Shown piece after piece: positions 29,555 through 36,085 of a DNA stretch of 64,000 bases. Location of the stretch: sequence record NC_105587.1; one strand, 5' to 3'. Both the position numbers and the translations under genes were made by a program. The notes under the pieces are model-generated. The model ran no database searches. It was given only the letters and a program-made list of their open reading frames with translations, and was not told the DNA's origin. Position 1 is the stretch's first letter; every line of letters starts with the position of its first letter. Source of the stretch: Escherichia phage EC100.

Positions 29555-29630
29555 TGGAGCGGCTAGAGGGAATCGAACCCTACTCAGCGAGGCTTGGAAG
29601 GCCTGCGACACAACCCGTGTGCTTAACCGC
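29555..29630 (-). tRNA. tRNA-Gly (TCC)
   Basis: acceptor stem, anticodon loop CTTCCAA. Confidence 0.6.
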
Positions 29631-29638
29631 TTATTATT

Positions 29639-29714
29639 TGGCTGGAGAAGGAGGAATCGAACCTACCATTAACGGAGTCAAAGGCCGCTGTGCTAACCGT
29701 TACACTACTCTCCA
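29639..29714 (-). tRNA. tRNA-Gln (TTG)
   Basis: U1-A72 acceptor start typical of tRNA-Gln, anticodon loop with TTG. Confidence 0.6.
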
Positions 29715-29720
29715 ATTATT

Positions 29721-29796
29721 TGGCTGGGATGCCACGGATCGAACGTGGAACCTTCGGAGTCAGAGGCCGACGATCTGCCAATTGATCTACATCCCA
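29721..29796 (-). tRNA. tRNA-Gln (CTG)
   Basis: acceptor TGGGATG/CATCCCA, anticodon loop CTCTGAC. Confidence 0.6.
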
Positions 29797-29808
29797 ATAA
29801 TTTTTATT

Positions 29809-30003
29809 CTACGGAAAAATTGTTGTTGGCTCAGATTCTTCCAAACGTTTGCCTTCATGATCTACTCGAATAACTCCGCATCCCTCGCAAATCACAACAG
29901 CACCGTAGCCTTCTTTAACTTCAGCTTCTGTAATCAAACCAGAAAGATCACCAGTATCTCTGCCCCACATATCAATGGAGCATTGTTTGCAGAAATCAGC
30001 CAT
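29809..30003 (-). CDS. small Cys-rich (zinc-ribbon-like) protein
   Basis: 64 aa; 'CKQCS...CEGCG'. Confidence 0.45.
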   Translation of the reverse strand: MADFCKQCSIDMWGRDTGDLSGLITEAEVKEGYGAVVICEGCGVIRVDHEGKRLEESEPTTIFP

Positions 30004-30028
30004 ATTTTATTTCCTATTTAAGTTAATT

Positions 30029-30105
30029 TGGGGTGGCTAGTGGAATTCGAATCCACATAGGCCTGATTCACAATCAGGATCATTAACCAATTATGATATA
30101 GCCAC
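30029..30105 (-). tRNA. tRNA-His (GTG)
   Basis: acceptor GTGGCTA/TAGCCAC, anticodon arm CCTGA-TTGTGAA-TCAGG. Confidence 0.7.
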
Positions 30106-30470
30106 AATTGAAAACTCGCAGGGTTAGCGAAACCTTCCTCAATTAGCATGTTCTAGAATACTAATCAAGTTATCTCCTATTGCACGCAGCTCAAGACGAG
30201 TACGAATTTTCAATTGTGGCGGCTCTCAGAAACTCTTCTACTCTAGCCTTAGCAGCTTACTCCCGAACGCATGTCGGGGAAGTCTTACTAAGCGCATCAA
30301 ATAGCACCGTTACACTTTGAGCCATTGGTGTATCAAGAAGCAGAAGGACTTGAACCTTCACGAGATAGACCATTTATCTCAGCCGCTTTATGAGGTATGT
30401 TGCAGGGAGTGGATGTTCCCTATAAACCTTTTAGGCAGCCCCGTCTACCGATTCCGGCATACTTCAAGAT

Positions 30471-30565
30471 TTGGAGGTAGGTAAGGGGATCGAACCCTTA
30501 CACCGTATCACTACGATCAACCGATTTCAAGTCGGAGTCCAGCGCCAGCCATTGGATTGACCTAC
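30471..30565 (-). tRNA. tRNA-Ser (TGA), class II
   Basis: acceptor GGTAGGT/ACCTACC, long variable arm, anticodon loop CTTGAAA. Confidence 0.6.
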
Positions 30566-30577
30566 CATATAAGTTAT

Positions 30578-30668
30578 TTGGCGGAAGAGGAGGGATTTGA
30601 ACTCTCAAGCCGTTTTACCAGTCAGCCACTTTCCAAGCGGTTTTCGTCGCCAATTCGATTTGCTCTTC
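30578..30668 (-). tRNA. tRNA-Ser (GGA), class II
   Basis: acceptor GGAAGAG/CTCTTCC, long variable arm, anticodon loop TTGGAAA. Confidence 0.5.
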
Positions 30669-30689
30669 CAATAATAAGATGATGCCTCT

Positions 30690-30765
30690 ATCACACCAGG
30701 CAGTTACGCCTCGCTGGGATTCGAACCCATTAAAACAGCTCAACCGAGATAGTAGGTTTAATTTA
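30690..30765 (-). tRNA. tRNA-like element, identity unresolved
   Basis: canonical T-arm but no pairing acceptor partner found by hand. Confidence 0.3.
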
Positions 30766-30771
30766 CTCTGA

Positions 30772-30848
30772 CCATCAAATTTGGTGCGTGACAAGGGATT
30801 CGAACCCTCAAAACCCGACTTCTAAGGACGGTATGTATGCCAATTCCA
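30772..30848 (-). tRNA. tRNA, anticodon probably TAG (Leu?)
   Basis: acceptor GCGTGAT/GTCACGC and T-arm clear; D-arm atypical. Confidence 0.45.
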
Positions 30849-30853
30849 TCAAT

Positions 30854-30928
30854 CACGCGTATTTGGTGGACAAAGAGGGACTCGAACCCTCCCTACCAGA
30901 TTGCAAGTCTGGTGTGCTCCCGCTGACA
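30854..30928 (-). tRNA. tRNA-Ala (TGC)
   Basis: acceptor with G3-U70, anticodon arm CCAGA-CTTGCAA-TCTGG. Confidence 0.7.
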
Positions 30929-34183: not shown

Positions 34184-34271
34184 TGGTGGGCGTTAATGGA
34201 GTCGAACCACTCGAGTCGCAATGACCAGGGATTTACAATCCCCTCCGCTACCACTTACGGAATAAACGCCC
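34184..34271 (-). tRNA. tRNA-Tyr (GTA), class II
   Basis: acceptor GGGCGTT/AACGCCC, long variable arm, anticodon loop TTGTAAA. Confidence 0.6.
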
Positions 34272-35132: not shown

Positions 35133-35161
35133 CTTAATTCCTTAACTTGGTAGGGGTTATA

Positions 35162-35845
35162 TCATCTATTTTTCTTAATACTTTTAGGATCTTTCCCTGT
35201 TAGGGACTTATACCTTTTCCTTAATCCAGTATCAGACAATCCTAGTTCTTTGGAGGCACGAATCCAGGAATATTTAGATACCCAGTACTCTATTTGCTCC
35301 ACAGTAATATCTGGATTTATAGTTATCTCTTTAGGAGTACATGATTTACAGTGTGTTGCTCTTGAGCTAATTTCGCAGTGACAAATAGCACACGTATTTA
35401 CAGTCCTTTCTGTATACCTGCCAATATTTTTGCCTGCATGAGTAGGTGTTAGTGCATGGCAATTTGGGCATAGGAAGGCTAAGTTATCCCATTCATTATT
35501 ATAGTGATTTCCATCCTTGTGTTCAAGTTCTAAAGGAATTGGTTTATCTAACCAACTTTCTAAGCCACAACTCTCACATTTATGTGGTTTTAGCCCCTCG
35601 TTAAGAATTTTATTCTTTAGTTTATAGGAAGAAATAGGGCTGCCGTTATATAAATACTCTGTTGCAGACTTATATTTATTATCATACTGCCTATTCGCAG
35701 GAATAACTACTATTCCTAGTTTTCCTAAATATGCTTCCAAAGTGTTCGAGGAGCAGGATAGCATTCTTGCTATCTCTGCTTTAGATTTTCCCTGAGCTAT
35801 CCACTGAGCTATTTCTTCCTTTCTATCTAGTATATCAGTTCTCAT
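35162..35845 (-). CDS. HNH homing endonuclease with N-terminal HTH
   Basis: 227 aa; 'ELEHKDGNHYNNEWDNLAFLCPNCH' plus extra Cys pairs; embedded in tRNA cluster. Confidence 0.7.
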   Translation of the reverse strand: MRTDILDRKEEIAQWIAQGKSKAEIARMLSCSSNTLEAYLGKLGIVVIPANRQYDNKYKSATEYLYNGSPISSYKLKNKILNEGLKPHKCESCGLESWLDKPIPLELEHKDGNHYNNEWDNLAFLCPNCHALTPTHAGKNIGRYTERTVNTCAICHCEISSRATHCKSCTPKEITINPDITVEQIEYWVSKYSWIRASKELGLSDTGLRKRYKSLTGKDPKSIKKNR

Positions 35846-35868
35846 AGTTTATGACTTTATAATTAAGT

Positions 35869-35946
35869 TGGTGGCTCCCCGAGGATTCGAACCTACGTAC
35901 CTTCCGGTTATGAGCCGGGTGCTCATACCATATGAGCTTGAGAACC
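35869..35946 (-). tRNA. tRNA-Met/Ile2 (CAT)
   Basis: acceptor GGTTCTC/GGGAGCC with G-U pairs, anticodon arm CCGG-CTCATAA-CCGG; weak T-stem. Confidence 0.5.
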
Positions 35947-35951
35947 AAAAT

Positions 35952-36041
35952 CTGGCGGAAGAAGTGGGAATCGAACCCACAAGGCTATATTTCAAACCGA
36001 CAGATTAGCAATCTGCTGCAATACCGTTATGCTATTCTTCC
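35952..36041 (-). tRNA. tRNA-Ser (GCT), class II
   Basis: acceptor GGAAGAA/TTCTTCC, long variable arm, anticodon loop TTGCTAA. Confidence 0.6.
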
Positions 36042-36056
36042 GAATTTATAAGATAT

Positions 36057-36085
36057 ATTATATTAGAAATTTAGCTTCATAGCAA
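36057..36085 (-). promoter_or_regulatory. strong sigma70 early promoter
   Basis: TTGCTA/17 bp/TATAAT; reads into tRNA-Ser/tRNA-Met. Confidence 0.6.

What the first reader, a model, noticed from the sequence alone, without database searches (positions are those of the whole stretch)
35162..35845. HTH-HNH endonuclease embedded among tRNA genes
A 227-aa protein combines an N-terminal helix-turn-helix-like segment with an HNH/zinc-finger nuclease core (ELEHKDGNHYNNEWDNLAFLCPNCH) and sits between tRNA-Tyr and tRNA-Met. As I recall, free-standing homing endonucleases are known in the T5 tRNA region; its target could be a tRNA gene region of related phages, or it may nick the phage's own DNA.
Basis: partly seen in the sequence, partly recalled or inferred. 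Interest (0 to 1): 0.35.

Follow-up and report, generated by a model that had tools for sequence, protein, structure and literature searches.

The report
Known T5 homing endonuclease HegA (F-TflIV)
This gene is the already described phage T5 HNH endonuclease HegA (F-TflIV), a selfish mobile nuclease gene in the phage's tRNA cluster; in this phage it sits where most relatives carry a small ORF and a tRNA-Leu gene, so it is an ordinary, known feature.

Summary
A 227-aa ORF lies at 35162..35845 (- strand) and carries the quoted motif. The window is the first 64 kb of the T5-like Escherichia phage EC122/EC104. The protein is 224/227 identical to T5 HegA (T5.075), which the T5 and BF23 curators name "H-N-H endonuclease F-TflIV" (Akulenko et al. 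2004, not readable here).

Its parts are a LuxR-type HTH, an HNH core, a second zinc ribbon and a C-terminal HTH. In the HNH core, H109, N121, H130 and four zinc cysteines are invariant across 34 homologues.

Comparison with relatives shows homing-endonuclease behaviour:
- The mobile unit is a tight 697-bp cassette (35158..35854).
- Full-length hegA DNA occurs in only 22 phage records, always at this locus, in two genera.
- At least 204 records instead carry small ORF(s) plus tRNA-Leu(UAA).
- The window keeps only the last 10 nt of that tRNA.
- hegA is 99.6-99.9% identical to BF23 and vB_Sen_I1, while the flanks are 92-96%.

The cleavage site was not determined here. The idea that it makes T5's virion nicks is disfavoured, because the nicking genes sciA and sciB map to the late region. 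Verdict: already known, low interest.

The parts
35162..35845 (-). hegA ORF, 227 aa: ortholog of T5 HegA / F-TflIV HNH endonuclease
   Evidence: ORF. 224/227 identical to T5 AAS77121.1. Annotated 'homing endonuclease' in EC122 and 'H-N-H endonuclease F-TflIV' in T5 and BF23.
35711..35845 (-). N-terminal LuxR/GerE-type helix-turn-helix (aa 1-45)
35441..35590 (-). HNH (beta-beta-alpha-metal) nuclease core with Cys4 zinc site (aa 86-135)
   Evidence: Invariant C90, C93, H109, N121, C126, N128, C129, H130 in 34 homologues. AF2 strands 106-109 and 122-125 and helix 127-131, pLDDT 88-97 in the 10-residue blocks covering aa 81-140. Weak fold hits to McrA, ZRANB3 and Cas9 HNH. PF01844 is sub-threshold in this protein but hit by 24/34 family members.
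35336..35398 (-). Second zinc ribbon, CxxC...CxxC (C152, C155, C166, C169; aa 150-170)
   Evidence: Cysteine positions. The pattern is kept in the long-form homologues. Double-zinc-ribbon Pfam hits in some members. Absent from the ~150-aa short-form homologues.
35186..35308 (-). C-terminal three-helix HTH (aa 180-220), shared with T5 HegD/F-TflII
   Evidence: AF2 helices 182-191, 194-201, 205-216. Weak profile hit to the LrpA HTH. Aligned stretch aa 105-225 is 54% identical to T5 HegD, with the last ~50 aa nearly identical; 33% to HegC.
35158..35854 (-). hegA cassette (697 bp) that replaces 'small ORF(s) + tRNA-Leu(UAA)' of hegA-less relatives
   Evidence: Homology to SB9, phiLLS and OSYSP stops at 35157/35158 and at 35855-35860. 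The base-level alignment places the 5' junction 9 nt upstream of the ATG and the 3' junction 4 nt after the stop codon.
35148..35157 (-). Remnant of tRNA-Leu(UAA): its last 10 nt (ACCCCTACCA)
   Evidence: In register with the 3' end of tRNA-Leu(UAA) of SB9, phiLLS and OSYSP. There is no intact tRNA-Leu(UAA) in the window.
35872..35946 (-). tRNA with anticodon CAU (tRNA-Ile2 in the curated T5 record, tRNA-Met in pipelines), 26 nt upstream of hegA
   Evidence: Rfam RF00005 40.3 bits. T5 and BF23 annotation. EC122 annotation.
35953..36041 (-). tRNA-Ser (GCU), first gene of the likely transcription unit
   Evidence: ARAGORN, Rfam 60.5 bits.
36057..36085 (-). Sigma-70-like promoter (TTGCTA-17-TATAAT), at the position of T5 promoter P15b; would drive tRNA-Ser, tRNA-CAU, hegA
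   Evidence: Consensus scan, 10/12 matches. T5 and BF23 annotate promoter P15b at the homologous position. No terminator-like site lies between it and hegA.

Best explanation
The ORF is the EC122 copy of hegA, the gene for the phage T5 free-standing HNH endonuclease F-TflIV.

Shown here: identity to the T5 protein, the domain anatomy, the cassette boundaries and the patchy distribution.

Inferred mechanism:
- The gene is transcribed from the early promoter upstream of tRNA-Ser together with two tRNAs, and is translated from a weak ribosome-binding site.
- The two HTH modules and the zinc ribbon position the zinc-stabilised beta-beta-alpha-metal HNH core on a long asymmetric DNA site. His109 acts as general base; Asn121 and His130 organise the metal.
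- In mixed infections with hegA-less T5-like phages the enzyme cuts or nicks the competitor's DNA in or near the allelic segment (small ORF + tRNA-Leu(UAA)). Recombinational repair from the hegA+ genome then copies hegA in and removes the tRNA-Leu segment.
- The hegA+ genome would be immune because that segment is deleted.

The location of the target is my inference, not a result.
For: - Identity: window = EC122/EC104 at 100% identity with the same coordinates. Protein 224/227 identical to T5 HegA. Same gene order as T5 and BF23, where the gene is named F-TflIV.
[quoted passage not shown] F-TflII is described as introducing single-strand breaks at asymmetric sites (PMC6105707).
- Catalytic core: H109, N121, H130 and four Cys are invariant. 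The AF2 model shows a beta-beta-alpha element at aa 106-131 with mean pLDDT 86. HNH-domain structures are among the fold hits.
- Mobility: a 697-bp cassette with sharp junctions. Full-length hegA in 22 records, against at least 204 with the tRNA-Leu cassette. Same locus in Tequintavirus and Epseptimavirus. hegA is 99.6-99.9% identical to BF23 and Sen_I1 while adjacent genes are 92-96%. A 10-nt tRNA-Leu remnant marks the replaced allele.
Against: - No cleavage data could be produced here, and the primary paper is not in the library, so the target site, and whether the enzyme nicks or cuts both strands, are not verified.
- Flanks are not more alike among hegA+ phages than between hegA+ and hegA- phages, so no long co-conversion tract is visible.
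- The distribution could also arise from repeated loss or ordinary recombination.
Confidence: 0.88

Rival explanations
1. HegA is the enzyme that makes the characteristic single-strand interruptions (nicks) of T5-type virion DNA, that is, it nicks the phage's own genome.
For: F-Tfl enzymes of T5 are cited as making single-strand breaks (PMC6105707). The two phages in which nicks were classically described, T5 and BF23, both carry hegA (PMC10644984).
Against: The genes responsible for T5 nicking, sciA and sciB, were mapped to the late region (PMC3517423), whereas hegA is in the early tRNA region. hegA is present in only 22 phage records, a small minority of T5-like genomes. T5 encodes nine HNH enzymes (bioRxiv 10.64898/2026.04.02.716235), so there is no specific link to hegA.
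Confidence: 0.04
2. The protein is mainly a DNA-binding regulator (a LuxR-type HTH protein, as annotated in phage VAH1) whose HNH part is vestigial, and its patchy distribution reflects ordinary accessory-gene turnover.
For: The strongest Pfam hit is GerE/LuxR. One record annotates it as a 'luxR family bacterial regulatory protein' (H8). Pfam HNH is sub-threshold.
Against: All HNH catalytic and zinc ligands are invariant across homologues of 37-91% identity, which argues for a functional nuclease. The T5 protein is named as a site-specific endonuclease in the literature. The HTH-plus-nuclease architecture is the norm for free-standing homing endonucleases (established knowledge).
Confidence: 0.03
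3. hegA is a domesticated or helper nuclease that acts on its own neighbourhood, promoting rearrangement, deletion or amplification of the adjacent tRNA and anti-defence island rather than classical homing.
For: A BF23 lab stock has a ~4-kb deletion that starts next to hegA and removes the TOPRIM 'Rad' anti-retron gene; the authors suggest the flanking nucleases, including HegA, may be responsible (PMC10644984). SegB in T6 drives segmental amplification of a tRNA anti-defence locus (PMC13096335). hegA lies between Rad (36063..36581) and tRNA-Tyr.
Against: There is no amplification or rearrangement in this window: gene order equals that of T5. No experiment on any T5 Heg protein supports this. 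It is not exclusive of homing.
Confidence: 0.05

Closest known systems
Phage T5 / BF23 HegA = F-TflIV (T5.075, AAS77121.1; CAE53202.1)
   Same: 99% amino-acid identity (224/227). Same length. Same position between tRNA(CAU)/tRNA-Ser and the T5.074 homolog. Same promoter context.
   Different: Three substitutions (A50T, F124L, E173G relative to T5). EC122 lacks the other tRNA-region heg genes of T5 (hegC, hegD, hegE).
T5 HegD (F-TflII) and HegC (F-TflI)
   Same: Free-standing HNH endonuclease genes in the same tRNA cluster, each abutting a tRNA gene at its 3' end. They share the C-terminal zinc ribbon + HTH module with HegA; the last ~50 aa are nearly identical in HegD.
   Different: They lack the N-terminal LuxR-type HTH. 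In the stretch aligned to HegA's HNH core they lack the C126/C129 zinc cysteines (LEVDHKDRN...DNLVVM...DH); their N-terminal parts were not examined. They sit at different insertion sites.
Phage T4 SegB (GIY-YIG) and T4 MobA-E (HNH) free-standing homing endonucleases
   Same: Free-standing nuclease genes. SegB sits in a phage tRNA gene cluster, cleaves the tRNA region of a related phage and is preferentially inherited (PMC2330249). Expression of such genes is thought to be limited by tRNA processing of the shared transcript.
   Different: SegB has a different catalytic fold (GIY-YIG). No sequence relationship was tested or expected. For HegA, target and homing were not demonstrated in anything I could read.
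Zinc-containing HNH nucleases of His-Me finger group 1 (McrA, Cas9 HNH, ZRANB3, ZorE, PtuB)
   Same: Beta-beta-alpha-metal core with the H...N...H triad and two CxxC pairs. F-TflIV is placed in this group by the His-Me finger classification (PMC5714182). Weak sequence and fold matches here.
   Different: Only the ~50-aa core is shared. The DNA-binding modules and the biological roles differ.

Membership tests
HegA / F-TflIV orthologous group of T5-like phages | Near-identity of the whole protein to T5 HegA | tested here: met
   224/227 identical, no gaps. DNA 97.8% to T5 and 99.6% to BF23.
HegA / F-TflIV orthologous group of T5-like phages | Same genomic position (between tRNA-Ser/tRNA-CAU and the T5.074 homolog) | tested here: met
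   Annotated regions of T5, BF23, EC122, vB_Sen_I1, S124, HZ_ZJUN2 and EH7.
HNH / His-Me finger endonucleases (group 1, PF01844-like) | Catalytic His at the end of strand 1, structural Asn, and metal-ligand His/Asn in the helix (H-N-H) | tested here: met
   H109, N121 and H130 (plus N128) are invariant in 34 homologues. Their positions fit strands 106-109 and 122-125 and helix 127-131 of the model.
HNH / His-Me finger endonucleases (group 1, PF01844-like) | Two CxxC pairs forming a structural zinc site around the core | tested here: met
   C90, C93, C126 and C129 are invariant.
HNH / His-Me finger endonucleases (group 1, PF01844-like) | Significant match to the curated family model or to solved HNH structures | tested here: inconclusive
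HNH / His-Me finger endonucleases (group 1, PF01844-like) | Metal-dependent DNA cleavage | not testable with these tools
   Only cited second-hand for the T5 protein (Akulenko 2004). The primary paper is not held.
Free-standing homing endonuclease genes of phages | Presence/absence polymorphism at a fixed locus among closely related genomes, with sharp boundaries around the ORF | tested here: met
   22 records with full-length hegA against at least 204 with the alternative cassette. Junctions lie 9 nt before the ATG and 4 nt after the stop codon.
Free-standing homing endonuclease genes of phages | Gene history discordant with its flanks (horizontal spread) | tested here: met
   hegA is 99.6-99.9% identical to BF23 and Sen_I1 while flanking genes are 92-96%. 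It is present in two genera.
Free-standing homing endonuclease genes of phages | The enzyme cleaves the gene-less allele near the insertion site, and the gene-carrying allele is resistant | not testable with these tools
   The only indirect support is that the replaced segment (small ORF + tRNA-Leu(UAA)) is absent from hegA+ genomes apart from 10 nt.
Free-standing homing endonuclease genes of phages | Biased (non-reciprocal) inheritance in mixed infection | not testable with these tools
   Needs phage crosses.

The most novel reading that the evidence does not exclude
The homing target of HegA is the tRNA-Leu(UAA) gene (or the small ORF next to it) of hegA-less T5-like phages, so each homing event destroys a phage tRNA gene. 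Because hegA sits inside an anti-defence island (phage tRNA-Tyr, the TOPRIM 'Rad' anti-retron gene), its breaks could also drive preferential inheritance, deletion or amplification of those anti-defence loci, as recently shown for SegB in T6. Neither point has been reported for any T5 Heg enzyme in the papers I could read.
Probability: 0.15. Interest if true: 0.4.

Novelty: already known. Interest (0 to 1): 0.1.

Why it matters
It matters little as a discovery. The gene is annotated in GenBank, named in REBASE-style nomenclature (F-TflIV), and described in a 2004 paper. The useful by-products are the exact cassette boundaries and the observation that hegA and tRNA-Leu(UAA) are alternative alleles. 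These give a concrete, testable candidate for the homing site. They are also relevant to how selfish nucleases remodel the tRNA and anti-defence island of T5-like phages used in phage therapy and defence-system research.

Tried and rejected
- I looked for the primary paper (PMID 15456135 and its DOI). It is not held, so the cleavage site and chemistry of F-TflIV are not verified.
- A sequence search of the PDB with the protein and with a 34-sequence profile found no close solved relative; only HTH hits and weak HNH hits appeared.
- I searched the window for paralogues of HegA with tblastn. There are none, so EC122 lacks the F-TflI and F-TflII genes of T5.
- I tested whether the 'empty' hegA site (SB9) and the 'empty' hegD site (window 29690..30040) share a DNA motif that the common C-terminal HTH could recognise. 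Nothing exceeded chance; the longest exact match was 9 nt at E 0.35.
- I looked for long co-conversion tracts. Flanks of hegA+ phages are not more similar to the window than flanks of hegA- phages.
- I considered the virion nickase idea and rejected it on the mapping of sciA and sciB to the late region.

Full report
**Observation**

The ORF listing finds a 227-aa ATG-initiated ORF at 35162..35845 on the minus strand. Its sequence contains the quoted motif ELEHKDGNHYNNEWDNLAFLCPNCH at aa 106-130.

ARAGORN tRNAs in the window, all on the minus strand between 28.2 and 39.7 kb. Rfam adds a 21st at 35872..35946 with anticodon CAU, 26 nt upstream of the ORF. tRNA-Ser(GCU) lies just upstream of that, at 35953..36041. 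tRNA-Tyr (34184..34271) is downstream but not adjacent: three small ORFs of 55, 68 and 91 aa intervene. So "between tRNA-Tyr and tRNA-Met" is loosely right. The curated T5 and BF23 records call the CAU tRNA tRNA-Ile2, whereas annotation pipelines call it tRNA-Met.

**Identity**

A megablast of 34100..36700 matches Escherichia phages EC122 and EC104 at 100% identity and the same coordinates. The window is therefore the left 64 kb of that Tequintavirus genome.

In EC122 the ORF is annotated "homing endonuclease". In T5 (AY543070) and BF23 (AJ604530) the gene at the same position is hegA, "H-N-H endonuclease F-TflIV". The window protein is 224/227 identical to T5 HegA.

[quoted passage not shown] 2004:
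- in the His-Me finger classification (PMC5714182);
- in the SegB paper (PMC2330249);
- in the BF23 genome paper (PMC10644984).

One paper summarises F-TflII as introducing single-strand breaks at asymmetric sites (PMC6105707). The primary paper is not in the library, so I could not verify the F-TflIV site.

**Anatomy of the protein**

- Pfam gives a GerE/LuxR HTH at aa 8-42, above its cutoff. It gives only sub-threshold HNH matches.
- PHROGs gives HNH endonuclease families at E 1e-79 and 8e-28.
- The large protein database returns 907 homologues at E <= 1e-5, in two forms. The long form (~230-270 aa) covers the whole protein. The short form (~150 aa) stops after the HNH core.
- In an alignment of 34 homologues (37-91% identity), C90, C93, H109, N121, C126, P127, N128, C129 and H130 are invariant. 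This is the H-N-H triad plus a Cys4 zinc site.
- An AlphaFold model built on that alignment has mean pLDDT 86. It shows four helices at aa 3-42, two linker helices, a beta-beta-alpha element (strands 106-109 and 122-125, helix 127-131), a small ribbon around C152/C155/C166/C169, and three helices at 182-216.
- Fold searches return HTH regulators for the terminal modules. For the core they return HNH domains (EcoKMcrA, ScoMcrA, ZRANB3, Cas9, retron Ec83 PtuB), all with weak scores. NCBIfam's ZorE HNH region matches at E 7e-6.
- 24 of the 34 family members hit PF01844 at E <= 0.01.

I conclude that the nuclease core is intact. The architecture is HTH, HNH(Zn), zinc ribbon, HTH.

**Mobility**

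Relatives that match the flanks but not the ORF (SB9, phiLLS, OSYSP) lose homology to the window at 35157/35158 and at 35855-35860. The base-level alignment puts the junctions 9 nt upstream of the ATG and 4 nt after the stop codon. The unit is therefore a 697-bp cassette (35158..35854).

In the hegA-less genomes the same interval holds one to three small ORFs (a 62-aa "antitermination Q-like" ORF in SB9) followed by tRNA-Leu(UAA). The window retains only the last 10 nt of that tRNA (ACCCCTACCA, 35157..35148), in register with the downstream flank. It has no intact tRNA-Leu(UAA). The remnant indicates that the tRNA-Leu allele is ancestral and that hegA displaced it.

Distribution across the phage collection:
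- The 2.6-kb region matches 525 records.
- Full-length hegA DNA is found in 22 records, which include duplicate entries of T5 and BF23.
- The SB9-type cassette is found at >= 80% coverage in 204 records, and tRNA-Leu with other small ORFs in further records.
- hegA occupies the same locus in Tequintavirus (T5, BF23, EC122, vB_Sen_I1) and in Epseptimavirus (S124, EH7).

Between EC122 and BF23 or vB_Sen_I1, hegA is 99.6-99.9% identical, while the adjacent ORFs and the TOPRIM gene are 92-96%. Sharp boundaries, minority distribution, a fixed locus and discordant conservation together are the comparative signature of a free-standing homing endonuclease gene.

**Expression context**

A sigma-70-like promoter (TTGCTA-17-TATAAT, 36085..36057) lies where T5 and BF23 annotate P15b, just upstream of tRNA-Ser. 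No terminator-like site lies between it and hegA. hegA is therefore probably co-transcribed with two tRNAs. BF23's curators mark only a 3-nt ribosome-binding site. The SegB paper notes, from a personal communication by Ksenzenko, that expression of the T5 F-Tfl genes is probably held down by tRNA processing of the primary transcript.

**Mechanism**

Shown here: identity to F-TflIV, an intact HNH core, three DNA-binding modules, and cassette behaviour.

Inferred: the enzyme recognises a long asymmetric site in the hegA-less allele, most plausibly within the tRNA-Leu(UAA)/small-ORF segment, which hegA+ genomes lack. It nicks or cuts there, and recombinational repair copies hegA across.

Two attempts to support the inferred steps failed:
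- I found no shared motif between the empty hegA and hegD sites that would explain the C-terminal HTH they have in common.
- I found no long co-conversion tract.

**Rival readings**

- Virion nickase. Disfavoured, because sciA and sciB, the genes responsible for T5 nicking, map to the late region (PMC3517423), and because hegA is rare among T5-like phages.
- Pure LuxR-type regulator. Disfavoured by the invariance of every catalytic and zinc ligand.
- Local genome remodelling. A role in remodelling the neighbouring anti-defence island is suggested by the BF23 authors for a deletion that abuts hegA, and by analogy with SegB in T6 (PMC13096335). It is untested and not exclusive of homing.

**Verdict**

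It is novel only in minor comparative detail: the exact cassette, hegA and tRNA-Leu(UAA) as alternative alleles, and the module shared with F-TflII.

Noticed in passing
window 35872..35946 (-): A tRNA with anticodon CAU is missed by ARAGORN but found by Rfam (40.3 bits). Curated T5 and BF23 records call it tRNA-Ile2 (CAU), while pipelines call it tRNA-Met. Its true identity (lysidine-modified Ile or Met) was not tested.
   Followed up: partly
window 30476..30566, 29558..29631, 40158..40229 (-): Further tRNA-like Rfam hits (tRNA or tRNA-Sec models, 31-38 bits) that ARAGORN did not call. T5 annotates several 'stable RNAs' and tRNA-like RNAs of unknown function across its tRNA region, but I did not check whether they correspond to these positions.
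   Followed up: no
window 36063..36581 (-) (ORF may start at 36632): The TOPRIM-domain ORF next to hegA (PHROG 'DNA primase', E 1e-62) is the homolog of T5.076/ORF071. The BF23 genome paper says this gene is Rad, an inhibitor of retron immunity. So hegA sits inside an anti-defence island together with phage tRNA-Tyr.
   Followed up: partly
window 35186..35398 (-) versus L014:5398-5979 (T5 hegD) and L014:7023-7607 (T5 hegC): The C-terminal zinc ribbon + HTH of HegA is shared with F-TflII (the last ~50 aa nearly identical) and more distantly with F-TflI, although the aligned HNH cores are of different types. This points to module shuffling among the T5 Heg nucleases.
   Followed up: partly
window 29700..30900: EC122 lacks the other tRNA-region HNH genes of T5: hegD/F-TflII next to tRNA-Gln(CUG), hegC/F-TflI next to tRNA-Ser2/Leu1, and hegE/F-TflV. 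tRNA-Gln(CUG) is intact here, whereas T5 marks it as a pseudogene overlapped by hegD. In T5, hegC and hegD each overlap the 5' end of a tRNA gene, and hegA abuts the tRNA-Leu remnant.
   Followed up: partly
L003:1360-1923, L011:1876-2401, L012:1276-1998: In hegA-less phages the interval between tRNA(CAU) and tRNA-Leu(UAA) is itself variable, holding one to three small ORFs in a replaced segment of about 270-560 bp (SB9, OSYSP; up to ~800 bp matched in Seafire). It is a hotspot for small accessory genes of unknown function.
   Followed up: no
window 36788..37840 (+): A 350-aa ORF (homolog of T5.077) has an acidic His/Asp/Glu-rich N-terminus, a Gly-rich hydrophobic stretch and a Gln/Ala-rich C-terminal half. 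It is transcribed divergently from the tRNA cluster. Its function is unknown.
   Followed up: no
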